A stretch of DNA of 64,000 nt from a candidate division WWE3 bacterium RAAC2_WWE3_1 (GCA_000503835.1 CP006914.1:721680-785679), one strand, 5' to 3'; counted from the stretch's first letter, positions 20,736 through 35,857 are shown. Numbers and translations are program-made. The notes: generated from the sequence alone by a model not told the origin.

Positions 20736-20771
20736 TTTGTTGTATTACGTATTTGAAGGCGGAGACTGCAA

Positions 20772-21803: not shown

Positions 21804-22724
21804 TTAAAAAGCCCTATTTACCAGATAAACGCCTATCGTAATTGCCAATATTGCAAACATTCTCTGCGCAAGTGTCTTTCTTGATATATCCTCTTTTGAT
21901 ATTCTTGGAAAAAGAATTGTAAGTATTATTCCAAACAAAAACACAAAAAAAGGCTGGAGACCATTGATTATCCATATCAGTGTCACCGGAGCAAGTATGG
22001 ACGCATAATTGAAGGAAATTTTAGCAACTATATTTACAATTTCGTTTGTAATATTTACTCCCAGAACTTGAGTTTTATTTGTTTTTAATACACTAATAAA
22101 TCCATCTCTGTAGCTTTTGATAAAGATGAGTAAAAATAATCCGAATAATCCAAATCCAATATATTCCCAGAAACTTGTTATAAAGAAGTCTGTTTCCACT
22201 GCAAAATATTTAAAGAATATAAAATTAAGAGAATACAGAAGACTTGATAGTACCATCAAGAGGAATACATCCCACTTCATATGAATTTTTTTAATATCCG
22301 CTAGGTTGAGCGAAATGAAAACGGAAGATACAAGAATTATTATCCCTCCAAGGATTTGATTGATATCCAAAACCTCTCCTAGAAAGATATAACCAAGAAT
22401 AAAGGAGAAAACAGGAATCATTTGGAACAGTGGAACCGTTAGCGATGCGTCATCTTTATCAAGAGCGTAGAAGTAGGGTAAGGTTGCCAATAGATAAAAA
22501 GACCCGTTTACAACAATTAACAAGTAGCTAAGGTTGAATTGTTGAAGGACTACCGGGTGAATTATTGCTATTACCGGAAGGAGGAGTACGGAAACACTGG
22601 CTGAGAATATCATAACCGAACCAACAGCACCCTTGTTAAAGAACTTAGTTAGGAGATATTTATCTATATGGTTTGTAACGCTCCAAAGTATTGGGGGTAA
22701 GAGTGCCATTAAAAACCAATCCAT
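21804..22724 (-). CDS. EamA/DMT-family transporter
   Basis: 306 aa, 10 TM helices in two 5-TM halves. The HIDKYLLTKFF region is typical of EamA. Confidence 0.6.
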   Translation of the reverse strand: MDWFLMALLPPILWSVTNHIDKYLLTKFFNKGAVGSVMIFSASVSVLLLPVIAIIHPVVLQQFNLSYLLIVVNGSFYLLATLPYFYALDKDDASLTVPLFQMIPVFSFILGYIFLGEVLDINQILGGIIILVSSVFISLNLADIKKIHMKWDVFLLMVLSSLLYSLNFIFFKYFAVETDFFITSFWEYIGFGLFGLFLLIFIKSYRDGFISVLKTNKTQVLGVNITNEIVNIVAKISFNYASILAPVTLIWIINGLQPFFVFLFGIILTILFPRISKEDISRKTLAQRMFAILAITIGVYLVNRAF

Positions 22725-22790
22725 ACGGAGATTATATCAGGGTTCGATTGTTATCCGGTGGGTTTTTTTGTTATGTTAAGTAAGATTTGT
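22725..22790 (-). promoter_or_regulatory. repeated promoter module, copy 1 (TGATATAATCTCCGT immediately 5' of the ATG; leaderless-type)
   Basis: Shares AGATTATATCA..GTTATC..TTAAGTAAGATTTG with 23273..23320. A TATAAT -10 lies 8-9 nt from the start codon. Confidence 0.35.
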
Positions 22791-22894
22791 CTCCCCCTCG
22801 CCGACCGTAACCTTAACATAACTAAGTATTTTATGCGAACCATTAAGATATTTGAGGATTTTAAGCTAGTACAAGGATTGAGGGAAGAAATAAA

Positions 22895-23272
22895 TTATTT
22901 CAAATTTCCATCAGAAAAATAATGCGATTCATCCTGAAACCTATTTGGCCAGAAGTCCAACTGTTCTCCTGGAATATTTAGTCTTTTACCAAAATCAATT
23001 ATCGGTTTCCAAGAGTTAGCATGAGGTTTTACATCAAAAACCTTGTTTTTAAAAAGTACAATTAGCCTCTCATCATTATAAAGGTGGGCATACCACGTCC
23101 CCTCGCTCTTCATATTTTTTTGAATCTTATTAATCACTTCCTGTAACTGAGAATCGTCAATTTCAATTCCATAGATACGCCACGACCCGTCTTGTTTTTT
23201 AGCGAATATTTTAAAAGAGTTTATAAATTCCTGGTCAATAAATTCCTGGTCAATAATAATTCCATGGTACAT
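22895..23272 (-). CDS. hypothetical protein
   Basis: 125 aa. Contains an internal 15-nt tandem duplication (IDQEF IDQEF). Confidence 0.4.
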   Translation of the reverse strand: MYHGIIIDQEFIDQEFINSFKIFAKKQDGSWRIYGIEIDDSQLQEVINKIQKNMKSEGTWYAHLYNDERLIVLFKNKVFDVKPHANSWKPIIDFGKRLNIPGEQLDFWPNRFQDESHYFSDGNLK

Positions 23273-23320
23273 ACGAAGATTATATCATCAGTTATCTTAA
23301 GTAAGATTTGGCTCACCATA
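23273..23320 (-). promoter_or_regulatory. repeated promoter module, copy 2 (TGATATAATCTTCGT immediately 5' of the ATG)
   Basis: Near-identical core to copy 1 at 22725..22790. Confidence 0.35.
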
Positions 23321-23364
23321 CACAACTATATCCGAGTATTATGAAAATGCTGGTGGGCTGTTAA

Positions 23365-23424
23365 GAGAAAAAATACCGCCTTGGGGAACTGTGAAAATTG
23401 CTTATTCACGTTTCCTTACGGCGG
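23365..23424 (-). terminator. conserved about 60-nt hairpin element, copy B (terminator-like)
   Basis: On the minus strand CCGCC..(GTGAATAAGCAATTTTCAC)..GGCGG followed by TATTTTTTCTC. Directly 3' of gene 23453..23743. Confidence 0.4.
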
Positions 23425-23452
23425 AGTGAGCTTAAATTTTATTTAAAGCATT

Positions 23453-23743
23453 TTATGGGAACAAGGCAAGGATAAGAGTTCCAAATAGGTGAAATGCGGC
23501 CAGCGCTGCAAACGAAAGAAACACAAGACCTGCTGCCACATACCCCCGTCCTGTGTGTTTGAGGAAAATTACCCCAATAATCACAGCGCAGGAACCATAG
23601 ATCGTGCTCAGCACAATTTCAAGCGGTTTAGATACAGCATATAGACCGATGTAGCCCAAAAAATCATAGATTACAGCAAGGTAAAATATTACCGCTACGG
23701 TGACTAATAGCCACATCAGATTTTTTTGTGCCTTAATAAACAT
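23453..23743 (-). CDS. small membrane protein (3 TM), hypothetical
   Basis: 96-aa hydrophobic ORF. Confidence 0.4.
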   Translation of the reverse strand: MFIKAQKNLMWLLVTVAVIFYLAVIYDFLGYIGLYAVSKPLEIVLSTIYGSCAVIIGVIFLKHTGRGYVAAGLVFLSFAALAAFHLFGTLILALFP

Positions 23744-24050
23744 GATTTTCTCTCCTTTTATCTATACAGTCCGCAAAGAATTTGTGCGGTTTATGAACGA
23801 TTTGTAGAGATTATAGCTTAGAATGGGTGAATAGTCAACCTATAGTGTAGATATTGGCTCGCTAGTTGGGGCGCTTTTCGTACTATGGAAATAGAGAGTT
23901 TTGTTTATGAAGAGGCTTTAGAAGTTTTGAGTTAGTAATTACCCCACACCTTCACACACTTTACTTTTTGATAAAAAAAGAGCCCTCTATTTTCATAGTG
24001 AGCTCTGTTTGCCGTAATGGCGATAAATATTTCTTTTGACGTTCTTGTCT

Positions 24051-24251
24051 CTATTCGGCTACAACGAGTTCGTATTCGCCGCAATCGCAGTGAGCAGTTC
24101 TGGAACCGAGGTTTCCCGATGTTTCGCGAGACAGGTGCACATGGCTACCATGACAATATGGGCAATCGCCCACGATGATGCAAAAACCGCCAACCTTCAA
24201 TTTCATCCCAACTCTTGCTTTTGCTGTAGGGAGATTTTTTTCTTCTGGCAT
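24051..24251 (-). CDS. small Cys/His-rich protein, hypothetical
   Basis: 66 aa with GDCPYCHGSHVH and HCDCGEYE motifs. Sits in a locally GC-rich (about 50%) segment. Confidence 0.3.
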   Translation of the reverse strand: MPEEKNLPTAKARVGMKLKVGGFCIIVGDCPYCHGSHVHLSRETSGNLGSRTAHCDCGEYELVVAE

Positions 24252-24260
24252 TTCTTCCTC

Positions 24261-24656
24261 CTAGCTCACAACGTAGTAGTAGGGCATGCCGCCTGGAAGT
24301 GCTGACCACATTTCGCGCGGAAGACAGGGTTTGACCTTGCCAATGGCGATGCCAAGCTGGAACAGTTGCTCCATAGTTTGGTGCATTCCCGTCCATTGGT
24401 TACCGTTTCGGTCGAAGCAAGCGTTCAGGAAAGACATACCTCCACCACCAGAAACCTTGAAATCATCAGGCAGTCCGGCGAGCATTGCTTCGATGTCTTT
24501 GCGGTGACTCTCGAGTCGCTGTGGGTTGAATCCGACCGTGCATGTAATGCCTTCGGCATTGACATGGTTCGTTGTGTCTTCGCCGTCCTTGAACATGCAG
24601 TCGTTAAAGACCGCGACGACCTTCTCTGCTGTTAAAGCATTCTGGTCCATTTTCAC
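24261..24656 (-). CDS. hypothetical protein (GC-rich foreign-looking segment)
   Basis: 131-aa ORF with GGAGAGG RBS. Local GC is clearly above the window average. Confidence 0.4.
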   Translation of the reverse strand: MKMDQNALTAEKVVAVFNDCMFKDGEDTTNHVNAEGITCTVGFNPQRLESHRKDIEAMLAGLPDDFKVSGGGGMSFLNACFDRNGNQWTGMHQTMEQLFQLGIAIGKVKPCLPREMWSALPGGMPYYYVVS

Positions 24657-24792
24657 CTCTCTCCTTTGTTATTGGTGGATATTGATAGCGGTATTATAAG
24701 GTAAAATCGTGGTTTAATCAACCTGTAGTGTATGATACATGTTCTGAAACATAGACACGGTCTTTGTAGAAAGAGATGTAATAGGCTAATAG

Positions 24793-25275
24793 TTTCAGGA
24801 GTTTACAGGTGAAAGAAACGAGCTTATAGACCAAAGGAAGAGGCTAAACACAAAGGACAGTAGCTTTTATGAGAAAACTGCAACACTTTACGACGTTGCC
24901 CAAGAGGGTATAGCGATTTATGAAGGTTCAAAAGAATTTGGAAAGCGCAGACTTATAAAGCTTATGTTCACAGATATGGTTCTAAATAGTGGGAACCTAC
25001 CTTTTGCCTATACAAAGCCTTATAAGACATTAAGAAAAGCTGTAGAAGAAACTAACGGTTCGAAAATAGCTGAAAATCCTACCTTTATGAAAAATATTTT
25101 CGAACTCAAGGATTTCAGCGAAGTGAAAGCAAAAATGGAGCTTTTGGGCGTCGATTGTTCTAATTGGCTCCGAGCTGTGCAGGAACTTAGAACCGTTATT
25201 TTAAGCGGTCGGCACTCCTACGAAATGGAGGCGGCTGTCAAAAAGCTCCGAGGAGAAGAACCGTTCGATGAGTAA
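24793..25275 (+). pseudogene. 5'-truncated gene fragment, copy 1 of a duplicated unknown gene (island boundary repeat)
   Basis: Open frame from stop 24790..24792 with no start until an internal Met at 24964. About 75% nt identity to 34726..35148. Translation ...ERNELIDQRKRLNTKD..FTDMVLNSGNLPFAYTKPYKTLRKAVEETNGSK... Confidence 0.5.
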
Positions 25276-25427
25276 ACGATGAGGTGGATGGAGAGGGTTA
25301 AGCCTGTAGCCAGTTCACGCTAAAAGGCGAAATTTTAGTGAATTGAATACTGTTTATTGTTCTTATTCACTAAACTTCAAAAGTGAACTGGAAAGGACCT
25401 TCAACGCCCTTTCCAGTTAAAAAGAGG

Positions 25428-28307
25428 TTATTCTGGAAAGCTGTACTTTTGTTCTCGTTTTTGGAATGCCTCTTGACCTCCCTCGAGAATTTCACAGACA
25501 TGCTGCCGAATCCCTTTGCGATATAAAATCGCTGGCTCTTCTGTAGCCTCTAACTCAAAGGTATTTTCAAGCGCACCAGAAACGTACTCAAAGCGAAACT
25601 TCTTATTTTCTCTCCCCACCTCCTGTCCGGACTGATTCGCAACAACTGTTTCTTCCGCGTCCGCACCGACAACAAGATTCGGGTTATGAGTGACAATGAC
25701 AATTTGCCTCTGCAATTTTTTCTTTTTCAAGAAATCAACCAAGTCATCATATACAGATCGATTATCAAGATCGTCCTCTGGCTGATCGAGAAGAATAGGC
25801 CACTCTTCGTCACTTAAATTAATAAGCAGCTGTAGAAGTACTAATCCCTTTTTGCCCGGTGACATTTTGTCGAGAGAGTCATTTTTATAGAAAATCCTGA
25901 AGTCGAGATAAAAATAGTTTTCCAAAAGCTTGGCAACAGCATCTTTTGGCTGTCGGTTCTTGACGGTGTTTATCGTCCCCTCGATAAGCCCCTCAAATAC
26001 TGTCGTCATATTGGCCAAATGTTTGGCCGGATCGTACTTGTAAACGAATTCATCACCCCACTCTGCCTCTACAATGACGCGCTTGAGGTCATTTTTATTT
26101 ATATATTCTTTAACCACGTCTGAGTTGAAGACATCGTCGTTAAAACTGACATGTACTCCAAGGGTGATTTCACCGAATTTACTTTCAAATTTCTTGAACT
26201 CATTCCGTAAGCCTTCATGCTTAGCAACTATCAATTTATATGAATCAATGACCCCGTCAGCCTTCTTTTTATAGGAGGCCTTCTTCGTCTTGAGATTATT
26301 TCTCTTGATGGCGATCTCATTTAATTTCTGTTGTTCTTTTTTAATAGCGTCGGTTTTTTCTTGAAGCTCCGATTGTAACTTAACTTTAGCTAGCAAAGGT
26401 GCTAACTCCGCTTTGATTTTGATTAGCTCCGCGTTGTAAGTCGTGATCTTTGTGTCGATAGCCGTAACCAAATTTGTGGTAGCAGATTTTACATTCGGAG
26501 CAAATGAATCCACTACTTTTAGTTCGATTTTAAACTTGGCTTTGATTTCAGCATCGTTGAGATATGCTTCATATTCGTCTGCCATTGTCCGCAAACCATC
26601 GACTTGGGATACCAAGCTGGTGTTGAGGTTTTTAATCGTCTTTTTATCTTCTTCGAGATTTGAAACTTGAGTAGTAATGTCCTTTTCTTTTGTTACCAAG
26701 TCCTCGTACTGCTTAAGTTGCTCTTCCGATAAGCCTGATTTTGCTTTGATATCATCGGCTTGTTTTTGGAGGGTTTGTATATAGCTCTCAATACCTTTTT
26801 CATCACCGGTCTGCTTCAGTTCTTCTTCGGTTTTCTTAATATCGTCCCGATCAGAAAATAGCTCACCAATCTCGGTTGGGATAGACTTAACCTTAACCTT
26901 TATTTCTTGCACGGTCTCCTCGTATTTTTCTCTGATAGTCGGTTCTTGAAGAATTACATTCAAAACAAACTCATTAAGTGCCTCACGGCTTTTAATGTTT
27001 GCTTCTGAAAGAGTGTTTAGATATTTCTGCGGTATATAAAGAATTTTTCGCTCCTTAGACTCATCTTCTGTGGCTCCATCCGGCACTCTTAGCAAAGTAC
27101 GCTGACCATCTTTCCACGTTACTTCAAAATTGAAATCAACTGATGCATCAAAGTCGTATTTTACCGGTACCCCACTATCAGCTGTCCGGTTCTTAACTTC
27201 TTCTCGGTCAATCGTTTTGGCCATGTAATAAAGCAATAGAGACTTGCCGGTTGATTTGCCTCCAATAATCGTAGTTAGATTTTGATTGATCTCAATTGAC
27301 TCACTGCCAAATTTTGCATCGCTGGTATTATCAAGAAAGCGGACTTTATCGATAACAAAATAAGATTTTTTCTCTTCGGGTTTTTGAGGGCCGACAAAGA
27401 TACGTTGCTCTGGTTCGTAAATAATCTGCTTCAATCCCTCAAATGTAGGGTCTGCTTTAATCCATAAGAAATTATCATCCTGATCGCATCGGCCAAGGTC
27501 TCTAAGTGACCTTGCGTCTGAACTAATATGGGCGCAAAACTTTGATGTAAGTGTTGCATTGGTCTTAATATATTCAGAAACAGCAACGGAAGATTGATTG
27601 TGCTGTGACTGTAAAAGATTTACTTTCTGATGATTGAAAATATCCGCGAGATGAGTTCTGTCTGTGCTTGTCCTTTCCTGAAATAACCCATTGCTACTAT
27701 TACAGTGAGGATAGATCACGATGCTGTTATTCTTTTTTGCCTCATTTAAGATATCCTTTATATCCGCAGTCGTTGTAGTAAGCACCCCATCTACATTCGT
27801 TCGATTGTTAATATTGAATTTCGTTAAAAAAGCATGAATCCCAGCCGAAAAAGTTTCTTTTCCATAAAGCTTCTCCCGGAAAAATAAAAGCATGTGAATG
27901 CCTTGGCAGTTGATTTCAACACCCGGTATCACTTTGCACCGAGATTGTTTTGCATATTCTATAAAAGAATCGAGCAAGCAATCATCAAAATAGTTATGAT
28001 CCGTAATGCCAATGCATTCAAGTTCGGGATTAAAGACGTCTAAAAATGCAAAATAACTTCTGACGTAATTAACACATCGATCATTCTTGGGAATGGCCGT
28101 ATCGTTAAAATAAGCCTTCGAGTCATACAGCAGAGCATTCTCTTCGCCACCAACTTTAGCAATGTATTGTTGCCAACCGGTAGGATTCGCTAGTTTTAGC
28201 TCTTCGGAATATTGACTAAGGGATATGTAGCCATCGTCCAATATGGTTTGCGTTTGCAAGTCCCATTTTCGCCATATTGAACCTTTTGTATATGGAAAGT
28301 TGCTCAT
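25428..28307 (-). CDS. PHP-like phosphoesterase domain fused to a Rad50/SbcC-like coiled-coil ABC ATPase (candidate defence nuclease/ATPase)
   Basis: N-terminal PHP-like motifs (KWDLQTQT, IGITDHNYF, VIPGVEI, IVIYPHC, HISSDAR) with His to Gln/Arg substitutions. Walker A IIGGKSTGKS, about 350-aa coiled-coil, signature-like MSPGKKGLVLLQLL, Walker B ILLDQPEDDLD, H-loop IVTHNP. Confidence 0.7.
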   Translation of the reverse strand: MSNFPYTKGSIWRKWDLQTQTILDDGYISLSQYSEELKLANPTGWQQYIAKVGGEENALLYDSKAYFNDTAIPKNDRCVNYVRSYFAFLDVFNPELECIGITDHNYFDDCLLDSFIEYAKQSRCKVIPGVEINCQGIHMLLFFREKLYGKETFSAGIHAFLTKFNINNRTNVDGVLTTTTADIKDILNEAKKNNSIVIYPHCNSSNGLFQERTSTDRTHLADIFNHQKVNLLQSQHNQSSVAVSEYIKTNATLTSKFCAHISSDARSLRDLGRCDQDDNFLWIKADPTFEGLKQIIYEPEQRIFVGPQKPEEKKSYFVIDKVRFLDNTSDAKFGSESIEINQNLTTIIGGKSTGKSLLLYYMAKTIDREEVKNRTADSGVPVKYDFDASVDFNFEVTWKDGQRTLLRVPDGATEDESKERKILYIPQKYLNTLSEANIKSREALNEFVLNVILQEPTIREKYEETVQEIKVKVKSIPTEIGELFSDRDDIKKTEEELKQTGDEKGIESYIQTLQKQADDIKAKSGLSEEQLKQYEDLVTKEKDITTQVSNLEEDKKTIKNLNTSLVSQVDGLRTMADEYEAYLNDAEIKAKFKIELKVVDSFAPNVKSATTNLVTAIDTKITTYNAELIKIKAELAPLLAKVKLQSELQEKTDAIKKEQQKLNEIAIKRNNLKTKKASYKKKADGVIDSYKLIVAKHEGLRNEFKKFESKFGEITLGVHVSFNDDVFNSDVVKEYINKNDLKRVIVEAEWGDEFVYKYDPAKHLANMTTVFEGLIEGTINTVKNRQPKDAVAKLLENYFYLDFRIFYKNDSLDKMSPGKKGLVLLQLLINLSDEEWPILLDQPEDDLDNRSVYDDLVDFLKKKKLQRQIVIVTHNPNLVVGADAEETVVANQSGQEVGRENKKFRFEYVSGALENTFELEATEEPAILYRKGIRQHVCEILEGGQEAFQKREQKYSFPE

Positions 28308-28311
28308 AAGC

Positions 28312-29184
28312 TTAATTCGATTTTTGGTTAAAATATATTACCTTATCTATTTTCTTAAAAAGAAAATTCAAGAATGACAACAGGTCCAGAGCCTCTTCTC
28401 GGTTAATAGGCCAATCAAGTGCTGGTTCATGGGCTTGGGGGTTACGAATAGCTCGCATTAGACCTACCGAAAGATGCATAACACCCTCTTGTTCATTCTT
28501 TTCAGTTCTTGTCTGTTGTGCATTCAGCTTAAGCGTACCGGTAAGCGCAAGAGCGTTTTCCATTAATCGCGATCCATACTCAGACATCTGAGATTTTTCT
28601 TGAATTTCTTTGTCATAAACCTTGCAACATTCAAAGACCGCATGAAAATAATTTCTCTCGGTAAATAGTTTTCGAGCATGCTGGGAAATTTTATTGTGAA
28701 ATTTACGGTCATCAAAAATTTTGGCGTTCTCCGGTATAGCCTTCGATAAAGATGTGATTTTCTCTCCGGACTTCCGTAGCTTCCCATCATCGCCAACCAG
28801 CAAACCGTAAAACCTTAAAATTTGATTCACTTGTTTACAAATAACCTCATGTTTTTCTGGAGCAGAAAAATACTCCTGTGGATCACAAAGTTGTTGAATC
28901 AGCGTCGCGATGTTAAATGTGCCGTAGGTCTGTTTCTGCATTGCTTCCAGAGCAGCATAAACGAACCGCCACTTCGTGCCGCCATCATGGGATATCTCTG
29001 GAAAGCCTGCTTTACGAAAAAGCTCGGATATTTCTGACCCGGTATAGTTGTCTCCGATTATTTTTGCCAGTGCTTCAAGGGCAGGCAACTTAAATGGTTC
29101 TAATTCCATATTCGCTACTTTAGTAATCCACAACCGAACCGCTTCCGTTTTCGTAAGATTTTCGGTATAATGGAAATATAGCAC
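28312..29184 (-). CDS. HEPN-domain protein of the Ymh/TIGR02391 type (Rx4HxE motif)
   Basis: C-terminal NYFHAVFECCKVYDKEIQ...EQEGVMHLSVGLMRAIRNPQAHEP...EALDLLSFLNFL matches the Hypoth_Ymh/TIGR02391 HEPN pattern. 4-bp gap to the downstream ATPase gene, so operonic. Confidence 0.6.
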   Translation of the reverse strand: MLYFHYTENLTKTEAVRLWITKVANMELEPFKLPALEALAKIIGDNYTGSEISELFRKAGFPEISHDGGTKWRFVYAALEAMQKQTYGTFNIATLIQQLCDPQEYFSAPEKHEVICKQVNQILRFYGLLVGDDGKLRKSGEKITSLSKAIPENAKIFDDRKFHNKISQHARKLFTERNYFHAVFECCKVYDKEIQEKSQMSEYGSRLMENALALTGTLKLNAQQTRTEKNEQEGVMHLSVGLMRAIRNPQAHEPALDWPINREEALDLLSFLNFLFKKIDKVIYFNQKSN

Positions 29185-29211
29185 TTTCGGCTTTAAACAT
29201 CAATCAAACTT

Positions 29212-30906
29212 ATGGGTATTCCAGTCACTAAACGACAAAAAGAAGTTTTAGACTTCGTAAAAACCTTCATTGATGATCAGGGCTACTCTCCGACTCTGGA
29301 AGAAATAAAGAAAAAATTACACCTCTCTGCTGTATCAACGGTTCACCAGCATATTAACGCCCTCATTGATAAAGGTTATATAAAAAAGTTCGACAATCTT
29401 GCTCGAGCTATTGAAGTCAATGGCCGGAGGGAAGAAAGTGTAAATAATTTTATAGAAATCCCTCTACTAGGCATGATCGCGGCTGGTAAGCCAATAGAGG
29501 CTATAGAAATACCAGAAACTATTTCCGTGCCTAAAGATTTTACATCAGGCCATGCCCGACACTATGCATTAAAAGTTCGCGGAGATAGTATGCAAGACGA
29601 CGGAATCTTTGATAGTGATACTGTGATTGTCCGCGAACAACCAGTGGTTGATAATGGTGAGATCGGCGTGGCTATTATAAATGGAAACGAAGCTACTCTT
29701 AAAAGAATCTACAAAGAAAAAAATGGTATCAGACTTCAACCAGCCAATGAAAGTTATAAACCTATACTCACCAAGAATGTCGAAATTAGAGGCAAAGTCA
29801 CGGGCGTATTACGAAACAGGTTCGATTCTTTACCTGAACCAGCCCAGCTCCCCTTATTCGTCTATCCTCAAAAAAGCGAACAACGGTTACTTCAAATACA
29901 TAACCGAAGGTTTCTGGGTAACAAAACTAAACTTCTTGGTTTTATAGGAGACATTGTAGCTGACAAATGTCGTGGCTATTATAGCTTTTGTGATATCTTT
30001 GCGGGTACCGGAGTTGTTGGACATTATTTCAATAGGCCAGATACCAAAATCATCTCGAATGATATTCTCGATAGTAGCTTTGTATCTCTTCAATGCTGGC
30101 TGAACACCAAAAATTACAACGAAGAAAAGATATCAAACATCATCGGACATTTAAATAACCTTCAACCGAAGAAAGAGAATTACGTATCGGAAATTTTTGG
30201 CGGCTCTTATTTTACTAAGGAAAATGCACAGAAAATCGGAGCTGTCAGAGAAAAAATAGAAAAACTACATAAAGATGGGGAGATCGACCAGGAAGAGAAA
30301 AATATTCTGCTGACTTCATTAGTTTACGCAATTGATAAAGTGGCTAATACTGTCGGCCATTATGAGACCTATAGAAAAAAACTCGATACAATACAGAGTT
30401 TGCGACTTTTAATGCCAGGCATTGATGTGAAAAACAATCTTAATAATGAAGTTCATCAAAAAGACGCAAATCAACTGATTAGAGAAATCGCGTGTGATGT
30501 GCTTTATATTGATCCACCATACAACTCAAGACAGTATGGAGATTCCTATCACCTACTAGAGAATATTGTTACCTGGGAGAAACCAAAAGTTGAGGGTATA
30601 GGAAAAAAAATGGTAGACCGCGAACATCTAAAAAGCCGTTACTGTTTAAAGGGTGCAGTTCACGCTTTCGAAGATTTGATACAGAACGCAAAAACAAAGC
30701 ATATTCTGGTCTCCTATAACAACACCGGCGAGAAAATGAACGAACGCTCCAACGCTAAAATACCCGATCACAGGATTATTGAGATTTTGAAAGAGCGAGG
30801 AGAGGTTGAGGTCTTCGAGCGAGAATATAAAGCATTCACTACCGGTAAAAGCGAAGCACCGGGTCATACCGAGCGCGTATTTTACTGCAAAGTTACAGGT
30901 AAATAA
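29212..30906 (+). CDS. LexA-like repressor (wHTH plus S24 autopeptidase) fused to a Dam-family (D12 class) N6-adenine DNA methyltransferase
   Basis: Residues 1-200: HTH, AAG cleavage site, GDSM catalytic Ser and LKR Lys of LexA/S24. Residues about 225-564: RRFLGNKTKLL, FCDIFAGTGVVG (motif I) and DPPY (motif IV) of Dam/D12 MTases. Single uninterrupted ORF. Confidence 0.75.
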   Translation: MGIPVTKRQKEVLDFVKTFIDDQGYSPTLEEIKKKLHLSAVSTVHQHINALIDKGYIKKFDNLARAIEVNGRREESVNNFIEIPLLGMIAAGKPIEAIEIPETISVPKDFTSGHARHYALKVRGDSMQDDGIFDSDTVIVREQPVVDNGEIGVAIINGNEATLKRIYKEKNGIRLQPANESYKPILTKNVEIRGKVTGVLRNRFDSLPEPAQLPLFVYPQKSEQRLLQIHNRRFLGNKTKLLGFIGDIVADKCRGYYSFCDIFAGTGVVGHYFNRPDTKIISNDILDSSFVSLQCWLNTKNYNEEKISNIIGHLNNLQPKKENYVSEIFGGSYFTKENAQKIGAVREKIEKLHKDGEIDQEEKNILLTSLVYAIDKVANTVGHYETYRKKLDTIQSLRLLMPGIDVKNNLNNEVHQKDANQLIREIACDVLYIDPPYNSRQYGDSYHLLENIVTWEKPKVEGIGKKMVDREHLKSRYCLKGAVHAFEDLIQNAKTKHILVSYNNTGEKMNERSNAKIPDHRIIEILKERGEVEVFEREYKAFTTGKSEAPGHTERVFYCKVTGK

Positions 30907-30913
30907 TAAATTT

Positions 30914-32731
30914 ATGAAAAAAATTTGGAGCATATCAACAACGGTTAGAAACCCAGAGAGAATCAGGAACTTCCTGGTCGCCCTAAAACCTTTAGATGGT
31001 GAGGTCTGGAATCACGATACTCAAAGGCGATTCCAAATACTCCTCATTCAGCACAAATTATACGGTGCTGGGAATAAACAATTTACAAACAATCTCTCTC
31101 GGGAGCATAGAGAATTGTTGGAAAATTCAGAGACTCTTACCTACGAACAAGCCGAAGAAATTCTAAATGCGAGAAATTATGTCGGTGCTGGTGATATGCG
31201 AGGCCGACAATCATTCAATCCGATTAAAAAGATGGGACTGGCAAAAATAGATGACCAGGGTCGGATTCGGATAACTTCTTTTGGAGAATACCTGCTGAAA
31301 GAAGATGCCGATCTTGGTGAAATGTTCTTTAAGAGTTTTCTTAAATGGCAATTACCGAATCCTCTTTCAAGAGATTTTAAGGTTGAAGATGGATATGACA
31401 TTAAACCTTTCATCGCGACGCTCCACCTCATCAACAAAGTGAATAAAATTTGTCGCAAGCGCGGACTTACTGAGAAAGGGCTATCTCAAGCTGAGTTTGA
31501 TATCTTTGTTCCTACACTTATTAGCTATCAAAATATTCAGGCTCAAGCTCGTAAGGTACTAGAATTTCGAACAGGTCTCGAGAGACTTGCCAATGAGCGA
31601 GAAAAACAAACGTACACCCATAGTTATGTAAGCGAAAACTTTGAAGATTTTGAAAATATGGAACACACCAAGGACTATGGCGACAATATTCGTCGCTATT
31701 TTCGAATGACTAGGTACTTCCATTTGCGTGGCAACGGTTATTATATTGATCTTGAGCCAAGGAGAAGTATTGAAATTCAAAAGATATTGAAGACGGACAA
31801 CGGCTCAAGCCAAGATTTTACTGCGGAAGCATATATTGATTACATCTCTGACATTAACCTGCCAATTCTGCCTTGGGAAACTCAAACAGAGTTGGTGCGA
31901 ATTAGTAACTATACAGCTGATGATATCAGGCAGTATCAAAACCAACTCAGAGAACAAAGAATACAAATACCTGATTTTGAATTTAAGAACACCGATCGTC
32001 TTTCGGTTGAACAACTAAAAGCCTATGTCGGTGAATTGAGAGATTACCGCAGAACTCTTCAAGAAACCGAGGATCACTTTGTATCTCAGAATGTCGACAA
32101 GGTCAGAGAATATATAGATCGGCTACGCAACATTCGACAATCCAAAGAGAAAAAGAGCATTGAGCTTGAACATTTAGCTACTCTAGCTTTGAATGCTATT
32201 AATGACGCACTTGCAATAAAGCCAAACTATCCAGTGGGAGACGATAACCAGCCAACTTTTACAGCACCAGCAAACAAACCAGACATTGAATGTTTCTACG
32301 ACGCATTTAATGGCGTATGCGAAGTAACCATGCTTACTAACCGCGCTCAGTGGATGCAAGAAGGTCAGCCAGTAATGAGACATCTAAGGGACTTCGAGGA
32401 TGCAAATAATAGTAAAGATACTTACTGTTTGTTTGTCGCTCCAACTTTGCATAGAGACACCGTAAATACTTTCTGGACAGCTGTTAAATATGAGTATGAA
32501 GGACGTCGACAAAAGATCGTACCGTTGACGATTAATGAACTCGCAAAATTACTAGAAGCGATTATTGCGATGAAGGACCGTGGTCAGCGACTTGATCACC
32601 GGCAACTCATGAATCTTTACGATTCCATAATCAACTTGACCAGCACAGCGCCTAGCTCTGATGTCTGGACTTCGCAAATATCCGGAGTCGTCGAACAGTG
32701 GTCTCGAGAAATTTTATCAGCACAAGTATGA
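30914..32731 (+). CDS. Type IIS restriction/nicking endonuclease, AlwI/N.BstNBI (RE_AlwI) family
   Basis: N-terminal WSISTTVRNPERI..GEVW, central RRYFRMTRYFHLRGNGYYIDLEP, PDIECFYDAFNGVCEVT, YCLFVAPT and C-terminal IVPLTINELAKLL. These co-linear blocks match N.BstNBI/AlwI family proteins as I recall them. Start set at ATG 30914 just after the upstream stop; the ORF track's 30806 start overlaps the upstream gene. Confidence 0.7.
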   Translation: MKKIWSISTTVRNPERIRNFLVALKPLDGEVWNHDTQRRFQILLIQHKLYGAGNKQFTNNLSREHRELLENSETLTYEQAEEILNARNYVGAGDMRGRQSFNPIKKMGLAKIDDQGRIRITSFGEYLLKEDADLGEMFFKSFLKWQLPNPLSRDFKVEDGYDIKPFIATLHLINKVNKICRKRGLTEKGLSQAEFDIFVPTLISYQNIQAQARKVLEFRTGLERLANEREKQTYTHSYVSENFEDFENMEHTKDYGDNIRRYFRMTRYFHLRGNGYYIDLEPRRSIEIQKILKTDNGSSQDFTAEAYIDYISDINLPILPWETQTELVRISNYTADDIRQYQNQLREQRIQIPDFEFKNTDRLSVEQLKAYVGELRDYRRTLQETEDHFVSQNVDKVREYIDRLRNIRQSKEKKSIELEHLATLALNAINDALAIKPNYPVGDDNQPTFTAPANKPDIECFYDAFNGVCEVTMLTNRAQWMQEGQPVMRHLRDFEDANNSKDTYCLFVAPTLHRDTVNTFWTAVKYEYEGRRQKIVPLTINELAKLLEAIIAMKDRGQRLDHRQLMNLYDSIINLTSTAPSSDVWTSQISGVVEQWSREILSAQV

Positions 32732-33498
32732 AGCTAAACACCATTCACAAAGGCGATTGCCGGACAATATTAAATAAGGACATCCCGGAAGAAAGCGTGG
32801 ATTTGATTTTTGCCGATCCTCCATACAACCTGTCAGGGAATGGCCTTAAATGGGAAGGAAATAAAACAGGTGGAGACTGGTTCATGGTTAACGAAAAGTG
32901 GGACCGGATGACCGAAGCCGAGTATTTAAAATTTACCAAAGAATGGATAGAGGCCTGCAAAAGAGTTTTAAAACCGACTGGCAGTATTTATATTTCCTGC
33001 ACATATCATAATATTGGTGAACTAATCATGGTTCTTAAGGCTCTTGGATTTATTCCAAGGAATATTATTACCTGGCACAAGAATAACGCTATGCCAAGCA
33101 TGACTCGACGCACCTTTACTCATTCATGCGAATACATACTATTTTTCTCAAAGGGTAAGAAATGGGTATTTAATTATTCAGAGATCAAAAAAATAAATCC
33201 AGAGAGAGCAAAAGATGGGTCCGAAAAACAAATGCGTGATCTCTGGATTATGCCTATTGTACAGGGCAAAGAACGAGTGAAGGATAAAACCGGTCGCTCT
33301 GCTCATCCAACACAAAAACCAGAGAATCTACTTGAAAGAGTTATCCTGGCTAGCAGCAACAAAGGAGATATTGTCCTTGATCCTTTTCTCGGAAGTGGAA
33401 CTACTGCAGTAGTAGCTAAACGTTTGGGTAGGAAATGGGTAGGTATTGAAACTGAAGATAAGTATGTAAAAGTCGCTGAAAAACGCCTCAATAATTAG
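32728..33498 (+). CDS. beta-class N6-adenine/N4-cytosine DNA methyltransferase (N6_N4_Mtase)
   Basis: DPPY (motif IV) precedes FLGSGTT (motif I), which is the beta permutation. ATG 32728 overlaps the endonuclease stop (ATGA), suggesting translational coupling. Confidence 0.8.
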   Translation: MKLNTIHKGDCRTILNKDIPEESVDLIFADPPYNLSGNGLKWEGNKTGGDWFMVNEKWDRMTEAEYLKFTKEWIEACKRVLKPTGSIYISCTYHNIGELIMVLKALGFIPRNIITWHKNNAMPSMTRRTFTHSCEYILFFSKGKKWVFNYSEIKKINPERAKDGSEKQMRDLWIMPIVQGKERVKDKTGRSAHPTQKPENLLERVILASSNKGDIVLDPFLGSGTTAVVAKRLGRKWVGIETEDKYVKVAEKRLNN

Positions 33499-33516
33499 AT
33501 ATTCACAAATAAGCAT

Positions 33517-33546
33517 TGACGGTCCATTCTCGGACCAGCTATAATA
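33517..33546 (+). promoter_or_regulatory. strong sigma-70-like promoter TTGACG-18-TATAAT
   Basis: TTGACG at 33517 and TATAAT at 33541. The spacer contains the palindrome GGTCC..GGACC. Confidence 0.5.
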
Positions 33547-33552
33547 AATACA

Positions 33553-33690
33553 TCAGAGTTAGTTGGTCTGACGGCGACTGAGTTCTCAGTCTAAACGCGA
33601 CGGGACTACGACTACTGTTATCGGCACTGCCATTTGGCGTGTGCATTTGATGACAAGAGTCGTGGTCCCGTTTTTGTTTTCCAGCTCGCT
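33553..33690 (+). ncRNA. candidate small RNA (about 135 nt) bounded by a promoter and an intrinsic terminator
   Basis: Downstream of the promoter there is no ORF with an RBS. Long hairpin GGGACTACGACT..AGTCGTGGTCCC followed by GTTTTTGTTTT at 33601..33690. Confidence 0.4.
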
Positions 33691-33791
33691 CTGCTAATAA
33701 ATAATTTCCCTCTGAGGCTAAGGTGCCTCGATTAGACTGACGAATTTGATTAGACAGATAAAGGCTAGTTCCCGGCAGGGGCCAGCCTTTT

Positions 33792-33992
33792 ATGTTGCCC
33801 CAAGAAGCAATTCAAGAATTCAAAGAATTATACGAGAAACGCTACGGCGTAAAGCTCTCCGACGAGGAGGCCGCTTTGCGTGCCAACAATCTTTTTAAAC
33901 TCTACAAAATCACCTACATGGGTGAGCCAAACATCGATGACTTTAAAGAAAAAGTAGTGAAAAGCCATGACCTACAACAAAACCACAATTAG
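33792..33992 (+). CDS. hypothetical small protein
   Basis: 66-aa ORF. Upstream tandem GATTAGAC(A) direct repeats at 33745..33771. Confidence 0.3.
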   Translation: MLPQEAIQEFKELYEKRYGVKLSDEEAALRANNLFKLYKITYMGEPNIDDFKEKVVKSHDLQQNHN

Positions 33993-34275
33993 CGAAACCC
34001 AGTTCTATCCGGTTAAACCCCAGGACGGCCTCCTAGGGTTTGTTTTGTTTGTCCTGGACGGGAAATTCTGGATGGGATCAGTGGCCGTGTTTAGTCGGCC
34101 GGACGGCCGATACCGGTTGGTTTACCCGACACGAAAAGTTGGCGGCCAAAATATTAATGTCTTTCATCCAATTAACCAAGAGGCAGGCCAACAGGTCGAA
34201 GCGGCCGTCAGTGAAAAAGTAGCTGAAATATTTAGTGAATCATGTGAACAAACCGAACCGGACAACACGTGGTAA
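33967..34275 (+). CDS. SpoVG-like protein
   Basis: FYPVKPQDGLLGFVLFVLDGKFWMGSVAVFSRPDGRYRLVYPTRKV...VFHPINQEAGQQVEAAV parallels the SpoVG fold (..ASITLD..F.V....G..VAMPS......HPIN...R..I). Confidence 0.45.
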   Translation: MTYNKTTISETQFYPVKPQDGLLGFVLFVLDGKFWMGSVAVFSRPDGRYRLVYPTRKVGGQNINVFHPINQEAGQQVEAAVSEKVAEIFSESCEQTEPDNTW

Positions 34276-34675
34276 AAGCTTAAATTTCTTTCCCGCTCCT
34301 CACCTAGTCTTCGATGACGACCGGCTGAAGAATTCGCTCACACATGCCGAGCGAGATTTTCTCATGGTAATCTGCCATCTCTCAAACCGCTATGCAAATG
34401 CAGACGGCTGGTTTTGGCATACCGATCGATTGTTTACGACGCGCGAAGATAAAGAGCGCGGGTTCGCTTCGTTCGGATTAAGTAGATCAACATGCCGACG
34501 TGTGAGAAAGAAGCTTGCCAGCCTTGGACTTATAGAAATCAGACCGGGAACATCGGAACGCGGCCGGTGGGCCGGAACTTTGTATCGCCTTAACCCAAAA
34601 CTTCTCCAATCCACCGAGGTTCATAATGAAGCACGGTCAGGCGTCTTGGAGAATCACGGCCCAGCTCCACCATGA
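34235..34675 (+). CDS. HTH-domain protein (replication-initiator/DnaD-like candidate), GC-rich
   Basis: FGLSRSTCRRVRKKLASLGLIE helix-turn-helix. Local GC is elevated. The start may be internal because the 5' end overlaps the upstream gene. Confidence 0.35.
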   Translation: MNHVNKPNRTTRGKSLNFFPAPHLVFDDDRLKNSLTHAERDFLMVICHLSNRYANADGWFWHTDRLFTTREDKERGFASFGLSRSTCRRVRKKLASLGLIEIRPGTSERGRWAGTLYRLNPKLLQSTEVHNEARSGVLENHGPAPP

Positions 34676-34725
34676 AGCACTTAGTAATAAAGATTGAGTA
34701 AGAAAGAAATAATAATAAAGCTTAA

Positions 34726-35148
34726 ATAAAGCTCGATGGAAAAATAACCGAGGATTTTTATCAAGAAAAGTACCAAGAGTTTACAGCTGAAAGAAATGAA
34801 CTCATTGTCCAAAGAAAGAAGCTAAACACAAAGGATAATAGTTTCTATGAGAAAACTACCGCTCTTTATGATGTAGCTCAAAAAGGTATTGAGATTTACG
34901 AGGAATCTAAAGAGTTAAGGAAACGCAGATTAATACGGCTTATATTTACAGACATGACCCTTAATAGTGGAATATTATATTTTGCCTACATAAAGCCATA
35001 TATGATATTAAGAAAAGCGGTTGAAGAAACTAATGGTTCGAAAGTAGCTGAAGACGAGACTTTTATGGAAAATATTTTCGAACTTAAGGATTTTAGCGGT
35101 GTTAAAGCAGAAATGGAGCCTTTGGGCATTGATTGTTCTTTATGGCTC
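34726..35148 (+). pseudogene. gene fragment, copy 2 of the duplicated unknown gene, truncated at both ends and abutting the tRNA-Asn 3' end
   Basis: No start codon. About 75% identical to 24793..25150. Identity to copy 1 ends at TGGCTCC, exactly where the minus-strand tRNA 3' terminus (TGGCTCCCCCGGG) begins. Confidence 0.5.
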
Positions 35149-35183
35149 CCCCGGGTGGATTCGAACCACCAACCTGCCGATTA

Positions 35184-35752
35184 CATGTGATCCGTTTGTT
35201 TCCAAACAGCATGGACTATCTCATCATCTTTTGTGTCACCACATTAAGATGTCGGGCGCTCTAGGGTGTAATCACCTAGTCTCTGCACCTTTTCATGTGT
35301 ACCCGGCAAGGCGTACAAATGAACTTGGCTCAGGATTACCATGTCCGTCGATTAATCGACAGAGTTAGGTTTCCCTGAGTTCACCCAATTTTTCAACCGT
35401 CGTTTCCGGCGGAAGCTGCACTACTCCGTTATGAATTTCCTTGTGACAGTTCGAACAGACTAAAACACATTTTTCAAGCTCTCTTTTAATTGTTTCCCAA
35501 CTTCTCGTTAGTCCGCGACTGGCGAGCCCGAAGTCTTTTTTCTGCCCATCTTTATGGTGAAACTCTAATGCCGCAAAGCATTTGTTATAACCACAAAGGT
35601 TGCATTTATTTCCAAGGTACTCGACTGCCAGCATTTTCAGTTTTCGTCTTCTCTTAGAGACAGCGAGACTGAGATAGCGGGGTCTGTCTGAGTACCTTCG
35701 GGTTTCCTTCGTCACAAGATATTTATATAACTTTCATAACGGTTGTCAACGT
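35184..35752 (-). other. tRNA intron (group I-like, inferred) carrying an HNH endonuclease ORF
   Basis: Lies between the two tRNA-Asn exons. Contains CDS 35365..35715 on the same strand. The secondary structure was not verified. Confidence 0.45.
35365..35715 (-). CDS. HNH homing endonuclease
   Basis: CNLCGYNKC...EFHHKDGQKKD...CSNCHKEIHNG. Canonical HNH motif with zinc-binding Cys pairs. 116 aa. Confidence 0.7.
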   Translation of the reverse strand: MTKETRRYSDRPRYLSLAVSKRRRKLKMLAVEYLGNKCNLCGYNKCFAALEFHHKDGQKKDFGLASRGLTRSWETIKRELEKCVLVCSNCHKEIHNGVVQLPPETTVEKLGELRET

Positions 35753-35857
35753 ACAGTCGGACGCTCTACCATTGAGCTACAGGGGAACGAAGCACAGAAA
35801 TACTAACATAACCGCTTCGGGGCTTCAATAATCGATTACTTTTCTATTTAGTGGATT

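What the first reader, a model, noticed from the sequence alone, without database searches (positions are those of the whole stretch)
24793..35786. About 10-kb island bounded by two diverged copies of the same gene fragment and terminating at an intron-containing tRNA-Asn
Segments 24793..25150 and 34726..35148 are about 75% identical at nucleotide level. Both translate in one frame to the same protein tail (..ERNEL..QRK+LNTKD.SFYEKT..LYDVAQ.GI.IYE.SKE...RRLI+L.FTDM.LNSG.L.FAY.KPY..LRKAVEETNGSK.AE...FM.NIFELKDFS.VKA.ME.LG.DCS.WL). Neither has a start codon.

Copy 2 is cut off exactly at TGGCTCC, the first bases of the minus-strand tRNA-Asn 3' terminus. A tRNA 3' terminus is a classic island attachment point.

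Everything between the copies is defence or mobile cargo: the HEPN+ATPase pair, the Type IIS RM, a promoter/terminator-bounded sRNA, a SpoVG-like gene and an HTH gene.

Flanking sequence is also atypical: GC-richer patches at 24036..24660 and 34235..34675. No integrase is present inside, so the element may be immobilised or mobilised in trans. The Xer-like recombinase at 42591 is 7 kb away.
Basis: partly seen in the sequence, partly recalled or inferred. Interest (0 to 1): 0.8.

Follow-up and report, generated by a model that had tools for sequence, protein, structure and literature searches.

The report
Decayed serine-integrase islands stacked at tRNA-Asn
The two repeated "gene fragments" are the leftover tail ends of two different large serine integrase genes, so the region is a fossil stack of two mobile elements inserted one after the other at the end of a tRNA-Asn gene; this integrase family unusually has its recombination site inside its own coding sequence.

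Summary
Two in-frame, start-less fragments (24793-25170 and 34726-35148) are 77-79% identical. The second runs into the 3' end of a minus-strand tRNA-Asn(GTT) that carries a 569-nt group I intron.

The interpretation needs revising. The fragments are the C-terminal ~130-140 aa of two distinct large serine recombinase (LSR) integrases, so they are the "missing" integrase.

Three junctions share the core TGGCTC, the reverse complement of the tRNA's GAGCCA-3' end:
- 23855: non-LSR DNA joined to an orphan LSR tail.
- 25165: LSR copy 1 joined to a second LSR tail.
- 35143: LSR copy 2 joined to the tRNA.

This fits a tandem array. E1 (23855-25170) is a 1.3-kb remnant. E2 (25171-35148) is 10 kb and carries a PD-Lambda-3-like pair and an AlwI-type RM system.

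A distant relative (L019) has the same architecture at its tRNA-Asn with two intact LSR genes of 553 and 532 aa. Closer relatives have no LSR-derived DNA at this tRNA.

About 30% of family representatives end in a tRNA-encoded tail (W-x4-DSN); others keep a conserved native tail (W..WDDFRT). The attP crossover therefore appears to lie inside the LSR ORF, so integration swaps the enzyme's C-terminus.

The window's copy is immobilised. The integrase family's behaviour is the interesting part.

The parts
23855..23935 (+). Outermost junction. Core TGGCTC (23855-23860) followed by a P'-type arm that encodes, in frame, an orphan LSR C-terminal tail WLASWGAFRTMEIESFVYEEALEVLS*. This is the left end of element E1.
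   Evidence: 76-80% nt identity to the sequence that follows intact LSR genes in L019/L004. 62% aa identity to the P0003/LSR_A tail. The DNA to its left is not LSR-like.
23936..24792 (.). Interior remnant of E1. GC-rich patch with two small minus-strand ORFs (24051-24251, 66 aa, Cys-rich; 24261-24656, 131 aa).
   Evidence: GC 0.49. ORFs. No Pfam or PADLOC hits. Absent from relatives L007-L017.
24793..25170 (+). Copy 1: 3' remnant of LSR gene 1 (equivalent to residues about 403-528 of an intact 553-aa LSR). It ends in core TGGCTC (25165-25170).
   Evidence: No start codon and stops upstream.
25171..25275 (+). P'-type arm of element E2. It continues the copy-1 frame as a native-type LSR tail RAVQELRTVILSGRHSYEMEAAVKKLRGEEPFDE*. 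Together with copy 1 it forms an attP-like P|P' junction.
   Evidence: The tail carries the family motif [DE][FLV]RT.
25428..29184 (-). E2 cargo: 959-aa ATPase (25428-28307) plus a 290-aa Hypoth_Ymh/HEPN-like protein (28312-29184). This is a PD-Lambda-3-like defence pair.
   Evidence: Pfam Hypoth_Ymh 6.5e-33; weak SMC_N/AAA_21/PHP. PADLOC PD-Lambda-3_B 7e-36; Ppl 9e-19 on the ATPase C-terminus.
29212..33498 (+). E2 cargo: AlwI-family type IIS/nicking restriction-modification system. It comprises a LexA-S24-Dam(D12) methyltransferase fusion (29212-30906), the REase (30806-32731) and an N4/N6 methyltransferase (32698-33498).
   Evidence: Pfam and PADLOC.
33516..33680 (+). E2: near-consensus promoter (33516-33545) followed by a strongly structured RNA of about 133 nt that ends in a hairpin and U-tract. 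Candidate small RNA.
   Evidence: Promoter matches 11/12. MFE -62 kcal/mol, z=-6.8. No Rfam family.
33792..34675 (+). E2 GC-rich module just upstream of the LSR remnant: 66-aa ORF, SpoVG-like 102-aa ORF (33967-34275), HTH-like 146-aa ORF (34235-34675).
   Evidence: Weak Pfam hits: SpoVG 1.9e-5, below cut-off; HTH 0.01-0.2. GC 0.46-0.49.
34726..35190 (+). Copy 2: 3' remnant of LSR gene 2 (equivalent to residues about 389-532). Core TGGCTC lies at 35143-35148. The frame continues into the antisense tRNA as PRVDSNHQPADYM*.
   Evidence: 80% aa identity to intact LSR_A of L019.
35143..35786 (-). tRNA-Asn(GTT). Exon 2 is 35183-35143, the group I intron is 35752-35184 (569 nt, 5' splice after U, last base G), and exon 1 is 35786-35753.
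   Evidence: Rfam RF00028 90 bits. Intron-less alleles in L011-L017, L002, L019 define the exon borders. Spliced sequence.
35365..35715 (-). Intron-borne 116-aa ORF, a weak HNH-like candidate homing endonuclease.
   Evidence: Pfam HNH E=0.027, below cut-off. The same 116-aa ORF occurs in the intron-bearing relatives L007-L010.

Best explanation
Window 23855-35148 is a tandem array of two decayed integrative elements. Each was inserted by its own large serine recombinase (LSR) at the extreme 3' end of tRNA-Asn in a candidate-division WWE3 (CPR) bacterium.

In this LSR family the crossover site lies inside the integrase ORF, at a nearly invariant Trp codon whose TGG is the reverse complement of the tRNA's CCA. 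The shared core here is TGGCTC.

Integration therefore does three things:
- It leaves the tRNA intact.
- It places the LSR gene convergent with the tRNA and overlapping it, so the enzyme's native tail of about 26-35 aa (W..W.DFRT...) is replaced by about 11-13 aa read from the antisense tRNA (WLPRVDSNH..).
- It strands the native tail codons at the far end of the element.

A second element then entered at the tRNA-proximal junction. This pushed the first one outward and created an attP-like LSR|tail junction between them.

In the window both LSR genes later lost their first 390-400 codons. E1 is a 1.3-kb stub, and E2 is a fixed 10-kb defence island (PD-Lambda-3-like pair plus AlwI-type RM).

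Shown: the homologies, the junctions, the intact counterpart, and absence in relatives.
Inferred: the exact crossover dinucleotide, the order of arrival, and that site-specific rather than homologous recombination built the array.
For: 1. Identity of the fragments. A phmmer search of 1.84 billion representatives gives 316 hits. The full-length ones are 500-550 aa with the match at about residues 384-502. They carry Resolvase + Recombinase + Zn_ribbon_recom domains.

2. Three junctions share TGGCTC with different right arms: orphan tail, second tail, tRNA. Both non-tRNA arms keep an open frame encoding the family's native tail motif.

3. An intact counterpart exists. L019 has, next to tRNA-Asn and DUF1189, in this order:
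- a decayed LSR fragment, TGGCTC, tail arm;
- element A with an intact 553-aa LSR that has a native tail;
- TGGCTC, tail arm;
- element B with an intact 532-aa LSR ending WLPRVDSNHEP* inside the tRNA.

4. Generality. 25 (strict pattern) to 46 (relaxed pattern) of 152 family representatives end in tRNA-encoded tails (W-x4-DSN). At least 13 have native W..[DE][FLV]RT tails. L018 has an intact 540-aa LSR overlapping tRNA-Ser, and L020 has a fragment abutting tRNA-Gln. LSRs with native tails in L022, L023, L025 and L026 have no tRNA nearby.

5. Independent origin of the copies. dN/dS between copy 1 and copy 2 is 0.11, the same as against intact LSR_A (0.11-0.14).

6. Horizontal spread. Copy 2 is 80% aa identical to L019 LSR_A, while the adjacent host DUF1189 proteins are only 31% identical.

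7. Unoccupied sites. In L007-L009 (about 81% nt relatives) homology stops exactly at 35143. Then 0.53 kb of unrelated DNA leads to the homologue of window gene 22895-23272. L011-L017 have other genes and no LSR.

8. Decay gradient. In both the window and L019 the remnants are more decayed the farther they lie from the tRNA.
Against: - No recombination activity, circular junction or excision product has been observed. The core and crossover are inferred from homology breakpoints only.
- All contigs recovered for this organism are 100% identical clones, so there is no within-species empty site.
- The 'empty' relatives are different species. Their synteny with the window breaks at 23273, not 23855, and they also lack 20434-22880. 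The left boundary is therefore supported mainly by the junction sequence.
- Secondary integration into an occupied (attR-like) site is not established behaviour for serine integrases.
- The P and P' arms show no obvious dyad symmetry.
- The C-terminal region has no Pfam or PDB sequence match.
Confidence: 0.8

Rival explanations
1. This is the first reader's model: a single ~10-kb island (24793-35786) bounded by direct repeats of one gene fragment that act as its att sites. It has no integrase of its own and is mobilised in trans, for example by the Xer-like recombinase at 42591.
For: - Two similar fragments flank the cargo.
- The island abuts a tRNA 3' end.
- There is no intact integrase in the 64-kb window.
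Against: - The repeats are integrase coding sequence with dN/dS 0.11, not att repeats.
- A third junction with the same core at 23855 lies outside the proposed island.
- In L019 each such 'repeat' is the end of a separate intact integrase gene.
- The Xer-like gene is syntenic in all relatives regardless of occupancy.
- No tRNA-fragment repeat is present.
Confidence: 0.07
2. The architecture is the same, two LSR elements in tandem, but the array was built by homologous recombination. An incoming circular element's LSR 3' region recombined with the resident element's homologous LSR 3' region, rather than by LSR-catalysed recombination with an occupied site.
For: - The LSR 3' ends share 78-82% identity over about 400 bp.
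- A single crossover there would give the same LSR|tail...LSR|tRNA order.
- Serine integrases are not known to use attR as a target.
Against: - Homology between the copies ends exactly at the 6-bp core at every junction in two unrelated hosts. That is what site-specific exchange predicts.
- 78-82% identity is a poor substrate for RecA.
- No mosaic breakpoints are visible within the fragments.
Confidence: 0.2
3. A gene fragment was duplicated in situ and then diverged, with no connection to element integration.
For: Two copies lie in the same orientation 10 kb apart.
Against: - dS is about 1.2 with dN/dS 0.11, which means long divergence under protein-level selection. That is impossible for start-less fragments in place.
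- Copy 2 is closer to an LSR in a distant host (82.5% nt) than to copy 1 (78%).
- The copies have different right arms.
Confidence: 0.02

Closest known systems
Large serine recombinase (serine integrase) elements such as phiC31, Bxb1, A118 prophages and SCCmec/Ccr
   Same: - The intact relatives have the same enzyme architecture: Resolvase + Recombinase + Zn-ribbon + long C-terminal region.
- The common core is very short, 6 bp here. Serine-integrase cores of 5-8 bp are described in PMC8092301.
- No long att duplication is present.
   Different: - The known ones integrate within protein-coding genes or intergenic sites (PMC8092301). Use of a tRNA gene by a serine integrase was called previously unreported in 2020, with only 14/297 computational cases (PMC7192596).
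- Here the target is the CCA end of a tRNA, and the crossover lies inside the integrase's own ORF.
SSV1-type archaeal integrases (integrase gene partitioned by integration into a tRNA gene; reviewed in PMC8371274)
   Same: attP lies within the integrase ORF, the target is a tRNA gene, and integration separates the integrase coding sequence into two parts at opposite ends of the element.
   Different: - SSV-type enzymes are tyrosine recombinases with a long tRNA-derived core, and the gene is split into two large parts.
- Here the enzyme is a serine recombinase, only the last ~26-35 codons are separated, and the body acquires a short tRNA-encoded tail.
Integration-dependent immunity of mycobacteriophages (attP inside the repressor gene, so integration changes the protein's C-terminus; mentioned in PMC8092301, remainder from my own knowledge)
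   Same: Integration swaps the C-terminal residues of a phage-encoded protein because the crossover site lies near the 3' end of its ORF.
   Different: There the affected gene is the repressor, the integrase is a tyrosine recombinase, and the functional consequence (loss of a degradation tag) has been shown experimentally. Here no consequence has been tested.
Tandem arrays of genomic islands at tRNA genes (Islander/TIGER; PMC7192596, PMC4383910)
   Same: Several unrelated-cargo elements are stacked at one tRNA, with the crossover core repeated at each junction and older members decayed.
   Different: The described arrays are built by tyrosine integrases that regenerate a long tRNA 3' segment at each junction. 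Here only 6 bp recur, and the junction markers are integrase 3' ends and tail arms.

Membership tests
Large serine recombinase (LSR) gene | N-terminal Resolvase catalytic domain | tested here: not met
   No N-terminal LSR sequence occurs anywhere in the window (tblastn with intact LSR_A/B). The window copies are 3' pseudogene remnants. Full-length homologues do have the domain.
Large serine recombinase (LSR) gene | Homology to the LSR-specific C-terminal region (after the Recombinase and Zn-ribbon domains) | tested here: met
   phmmer hits to residues about 384-502 of 500-550-aa Resolvase+Recombinase+Zn_ribbon proteins. 80% aa identity to residues 389-532 of intact L019 LSR_A.
Site-specific integrative element (genomic island) | Present/absent polymorphism at a defined site among related genomes | tested here: met
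   L007-L009 and L011-L017 lack all LSR-derived and cargo DNA at tRNA-Asn, and homology stops at 35143. Not testable within the species, because all contigs are clonal.
Site-specific integrative element (genomic island) | Recombination core repeated at both ends | tested here: met
   TGGCTC occurs at 23855, 25165 and 35143 with the expected arm types. The same is seen at three junctions in L019.
Classical tRNA-targeting island (tyrosine integrase, Islander type) | Tyrosine integrase adjacent to the tRNA, and a displaced tRNA 3' fragment (>=15-20 nt) as a distal direct repeat | tested here: not met
   No second copy of the tRNA 3' 25-mer at up to 3 mismatches. The only tyrosine recombinase is a syntenic Xer-like gene 7 kb away that is present in all relatives.
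SSV1-type self-partitioning integrase | attP inside the integrase ORF, so that integration splits the gene | tested here: met
   Orphan tail arms in frame at 23855 and 25171. In L019 intact LSR ORFs span the junctions. This is an analogy only: the enzyme family differs.
SSV1-type self-partitioning integrase | Tyrosine recombinase catalytic domain | tested here: not met
   The homologues are serine recombinases.
Group I intron in a tRNA anticodon loop | Match to the group I covariance model, 5' exon ending in U, intron ending in G, and intron-less alleles restoring a canonical tRNA | tested here: met
   RF00028 90 bits. Exon borders come from intron-less relatives. Spliced 75-nt tRNA-Asn. Self-splicing itself is not testable here.
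PD-Lambda-3 defence system | Both components A and B present | tested here: inconclusive
   The B component matches at 7e-36. The adjacent 959-aa ATPase matches only Ppl/AriA C-terminal regions, not a PD-Lambda-3_A model.
Type IIS AlwI-family restriction-modification system | AlwI-type endonuclease with cognate methyltransferase(s) | tested here: met
   RE_AlwI 3e-81; D12 MTase 8e-33; N6_N4_Mtase 1e-67. PADLOC REase_II/MTase_II.

The most novel reading that the evidence does not exclude
A widespread family of large serine integrases in CPR bacteria targets the CCA ends of tRNA genes using a crossover site at a conserved Trp codon inside the integrase's own ORF. Integration would then exchange a conserved native C-terminal tail (W..WDDFRT..., about 26-35 aa) for a short tRNA-encoded tail. 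That swap would act as a built-in switch on integrase activity or directionality. It would be a serine-recombinase analogue of SSV1 integrase partition and of integration-dependent immunity. It could also allow repeated stacking of elements at the same tRNA.
Probability: 0.3. Interest if true: 0.75.

Novelty: new variant of a known kind. Interest (0 to 1): 0.55.

Why it matters
For this genome, an odd repeat turns out to be a fixed, immobilised defence island left behind by two integrative elements, with precise boundaries.

The broader points concern the integrase family:
- Serine integrases are the main tools for large-DNA insertion, yet they are thought to avoid tRNA genes. The 2020 survey PMC7192596 called tRNA use by them unreported.
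- This family targets the last bases of tRNAs (Asn, Ser and Gln are seen here).
- It spreads between CPR hosts whose neighbouring genes are only 31% identical.
- It carries its attP inside its own coding sequence, so the enzyme differs between the free and integrated states.

If the tail swap controls activity, it would be a new and very compact directionality mechanism. It would also offer a set of natural integrases aimed at universally conserved tRNA ends.

Tried and rejected
- Pfam on the two fragments gave nothing meaningful. A PDB sequence search with an intact relative matched only the N-terminal catalytic domain.
- The word-indexed protein search found only three short relatives. The exhaustive phmmer search was needed.
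- ARAGORN does not call the intron-containing tRNA-Asn.
- A search for a second copy of the tRNA 3' end, the classical att repeat, was negative.
- Scanning for further TGGCT+tail junctions left of 23855 found none.
- The viral-contig scan with the fragment alignment found no relatives.
- The genome-contig scan with DUF1189 gave only two loci. One of them ends exactly at the tRNA 3' end.
- The search for a within-species empty site via the 96-aa left-flank protein returned only clones 100% identical to the window.
- tblastx of the island against related loci showed that no cargo is shared, only the LSR ends and tail arms.
- Literature searches for serine integrases at tRNAs in CPR/Patescibacteria found nothing specific.
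- The motif TCAACCTRTAGTGTA at 23836 and 24720 and the 'AATAGTCAA' resemblance to an older LSR remnant left of 23855 are too short to interpret.

Full report
**1. Checking the observation**

The two segments exist as described. MAFFT aligns 24793-25170 with 34771-35148 without gaps. The repeat finder gives 77% over 300 nt. The shared 378-nt coding stretch is 78.3% identical at nucleotide level and 77% at protein level.

Both read in one frame with stop codons just upstream and no usable start. Copy 2's open frame starts at 34726. Copy 1's homology starts about 14 codons later in the protein.

Copy 1 continues past the shared part as ..WLRAVQELRTVILSGRHSYEMEAAVKKLRGEEPFDE*. Copy 2 continues as ..WLPRVDSNHQPADYM*.

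ARAGORN finds no tRNA at this position, but two results establish one:
- Rfam detects a group I intron at 35192-35472 on the minus strand (90 bits).
- Intron-less relatives align to the window as 35786-35753 followed directly by 35183-35143.

Spliced, this gives a canonical 75-nt tRNA-Asn(GTT) with encoded CCA. The intron is 569 nt, follows a U, ends in G, and carries a 116-aa weakly HNH-like ORF. The GC-rich patches are also real.

**2. What the fragments are**

Pfam is silent on the fragments, and the indexed protein search found only three short relatives. An exhaustive phmmer search found 316 relatives. The full-length ones are 500-550 aa with the match at about residues 384-502. They contain Resolvase, Recombinase and Zn_ribbon_recom domains.

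The fragments are therefore the C-terminal 130-140 residues of large serine recombinases (LSRs).

The alignment shows a nearly invariant Trp at the point where the tails diverge.
- In 25 (strict pattern) to 46 (relaxed pattern) of 152 representatives, the residues after that Trp read W-x4-DSN or a variant. This is what the reverse complement of a tRNA CCA end, acceptor stem and T-arm encodes when TGG is paired with CCA.
- At least 13 others carry a conserved 'native' tail, W..W.DFRT or a relative of it.
- An intact 540-aa member overlaps the 3' end of a tRNA-Ser (L018).
- A fragment abuts tRNA-Gln in L020.
- Members with native tails in L022, L023, L025 and L026 have no tRNA nearby.

**3. Junction anatomy in the window**

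| Position | Left of core | Core | Right of core |
|---|---|---|---|
| 23855 | non-LSR DNA | TGGCTC | in-frame orphan tail WLASWGAFRTMEIESFVYEEALEVLS*; 76-80% nt identical to the sequence that follows intact LSR genes in L019/L004 |
| 25165 | LSR copy 1 | TGGCTC | a second, diverged native-type tail |
| 35143 | LSR copy 2 | TGGCTC | the tRNA |

TGGCTC is the reverse complement of the tRNA's GAGCCA-3' end. No other TGGCT site in 17-36 kb has such an arm. There is no second copy of the tRNA 3' end.

The simplest reading is two elements in tandem:
- E1 = 23855-25170: tail arm, GC-rich stub, then the LSR-1 remnant.
- E2 = 25171-35148: tail arm, cargo, then the LSR-2 remnant abutting the tRNA.

**4. 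An intact counterpart**

The metagenome scan recovered L019, a 56-kb contig. Beside its tRNA-Asn and DUF1189 gene it has, in order:
- a decayed LSR fragment fused to a tail arm (TGGCTC at 2144);
- element A, ending in an intact 553-aa LSR with the native tail (TGGCTC at 10415);
- element B, ending in an intact 532-aa LSR that reads WLPRVDSNHEP* into the tRNA (TGGCTC at 18921).

This is the architecture inferred for the window, with the integrases still whole.

The window's copy 2 is 80% identical in protein to L019 LSR_A. The adjacent host DUF1189 proteins are only 31% identical. The elements therefore move between distantly related hosts and keep the same tRNA target.

Cargo is not shared. 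Only the LSR ends and tail arms are.

**5. Independent origin of the copies**

dN/dS between copy 1 and copy 2 is 0.11, with dS about 1.2. This is the same ratio as between either copy and intact LSR_A (0.11-0.14). The divergence therefore accumulated while both were parts of working genes. The copies come from two different integrases that were truncated later, not from an in-place duplication.

**6. Comparison with relatives**

The window is identical to a contig of a candidate-division WWE3 MAG (GCA_003525165.1). The same clone recurs in many groundwater samples, and three loci are 100% identical over 20.3 kb. No within-species polymorphism could be tested.

Relatives at about 81% nt identity (L005, L007-L010):
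- They align through the intron-containing tRNA and stop exactly at 35143. Two of these contigs end there.
- In L007-L009 the tRNA is followed by 0.53 kb with an unrelated 160-aa ORF.
- Next come the homologue of window gene 22895-23272, then the UbiE-type methyltransferase (window 19754-20434).
- So 23274-35142 is missing, and 20434-22880 is missing separately.

L011-L017 have an intron-less tRNA-Asn and 8-9 kb of different genes before the conserved TPR gene. They contain no LSR sequence.

Other lineages (L002, L003, L021, L027, L028) keep LSR remnants of various lengths beside the tRNA. This fits erosion from the 5' side.

The Xer-like gene at 42591 is syntenic in all relatives.

**7. Cargo of E2**

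- A 959-aa ATPase plus a Hypoth_Ymh/HEPN-like protein. The latter matches PD-Lambda-3_B at 7e-36. The ATPase resembles Ppl/AriA only at its C-terminus.
- An AlwI-family type IIS or nicking restriction system with two methyltransferases. The first is fused to a LexA DNA-binding domain and an S24 peptidase domain.
- A promoter-plus-hairpin candidate small RNA.
- A GC-rich trio of small genes: a 66-aa ORF, a SpoVG-like ORF and an HTH-like ORF.

**8. Mechanism**

Shown:
- The homology relations.
- The three junctions with a common core.
- Open-frame tail arms.
- The intact array in L019.
- tRNA-encoded tails across the family.
- Absence of the DNA in relatives.

Inferred:
- The family's attP spans the Trp codon near the 3' end of its own ORF, and attB is the tRNA CCA end plus downstream DNA.
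- Exchange occurs within TGGCTC, so the tRNA stays intact.
- Integration swaps the native tail for a tRNA-encoded one and strands the native tail at the distal end.
- New elements enter at the tRNA-proximal junction. Remnants are more decayed with distance from the tRNA in both the window and L019.

It is open whether the second entry is catalysed on the hybrid site or occurs by homologous recombination. It is also untested whether the tail swap affects activity.

**9. Novelty**

Genomic islands and tandem arrays at tRNAs are well known for tyrosine integrases (PMC4383910, PMC7192596). For serine integrases, the 2020 TIGER survey found tRNA use in only 14 of 297 cases and stated it had not been reported before (PMC7192596). 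Characterised serine integrases use short cores within protein genes (PMC8092301).

An attP inside the integrase gene is known for archaeal SSV-type tyrosine integrases (PMC8371274). My literature searches found nothing comparable for serine integrases or for CPR bacteria. These searches cover only the held library.

**10. Verdict**

The window's island is a decayed, immobile example and is ordinary as a defence island. The family behaviour it reveals is a new variant of a known kind. Interest is 0.55.

Noticed in passing
window 29212-30906 (+): The first methyltransferase of the AlwI-type RM system is fused to a complete LexA-like module (LexA_DNA_bind 5e-17 and Peptidase_S24 1e-29, then D12 Dam-type MTase 8e-33). 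This suggests SOS-type or autoproteolytic control of a restriction-modification system.
   Followed up: no
window 33516-33680 (+): A near-consensus sigma-70 promoter (TTGACG-18-TATAAT) is followed by a ~133-nt RNA with very stable predicted structure (MFE -62 kcal/mol, z=-6.8). It ends in a long hairpin and U-tract. There is no Rfam match.
   Followed up: partly
window 35184-35752 (-), and loci L005, L007-L010 versus L011-L017, L002, L019, L021, L027, L028: The group I intron in tRNA-Asn(GTT), with its 116-aa HNH-like ORF, is polymorphic. It is present in the window and its nearest relatives and absent from other WWE3-like lineages with an almost identical tRNA.
   Followed up: partly
window 42337-42373 and 42460-42536 (+): A perfect 37-nt copy of the 5' half of tRNA-Ile(TAT), up to the anticodon loop, lies ~90 bp upstream of the complete gene. 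It is conserved at 100% in relatives. Relatives L007-L009 also carry an extra GT87 glycosyltransferase gene between the Xer-like gene and this tRNA.
   Followed up: no
window 20675-20735, 23364-23424, and inverted 18262-18289: A 61-nt intergenic repeat (84% identical) with internal hairpin potential, plus a partial inverted copy. It is possibly a terminator-like or REP-like element.
   Followed up: no
window 22722-22796 and 23270-23317: The upstream regions of the EamA transporter gene and the neighbouring 125-aa gene share two short near-identical blocks (families D6 and D20), suggesting a duplicated promoter or leader.
   Followed up: no
window 20434-22880: A separate 2.4-kb segment (two small ORFs and the EamA transporter) is absent from relatives L007-L009. 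In those relatives the 125-aa gene lies next to the UbiE-type methyltransferase. The whole stretch between the TPR gene (15671-17404) and tRNA-Asn is a variable region.
   Followed up: partly
L018 4279-7062: An intact 540-aa LSR overlapping tRNA-Ser sits directly downstream of a gene with a weak Phage_CRI (rolling-circle replication initiator) hit. Some elements of this family may therefore be small replicon-like or inovirus-like.
   Followed up: no
window 23836-23850 and 24720-24734: The motif TCAACCT(A/G)TAGTGTA occurs just left of the outer junction and again ~60 nt upstream of LSR copy 1. Its meaning is unknown.
   Followed up: partly
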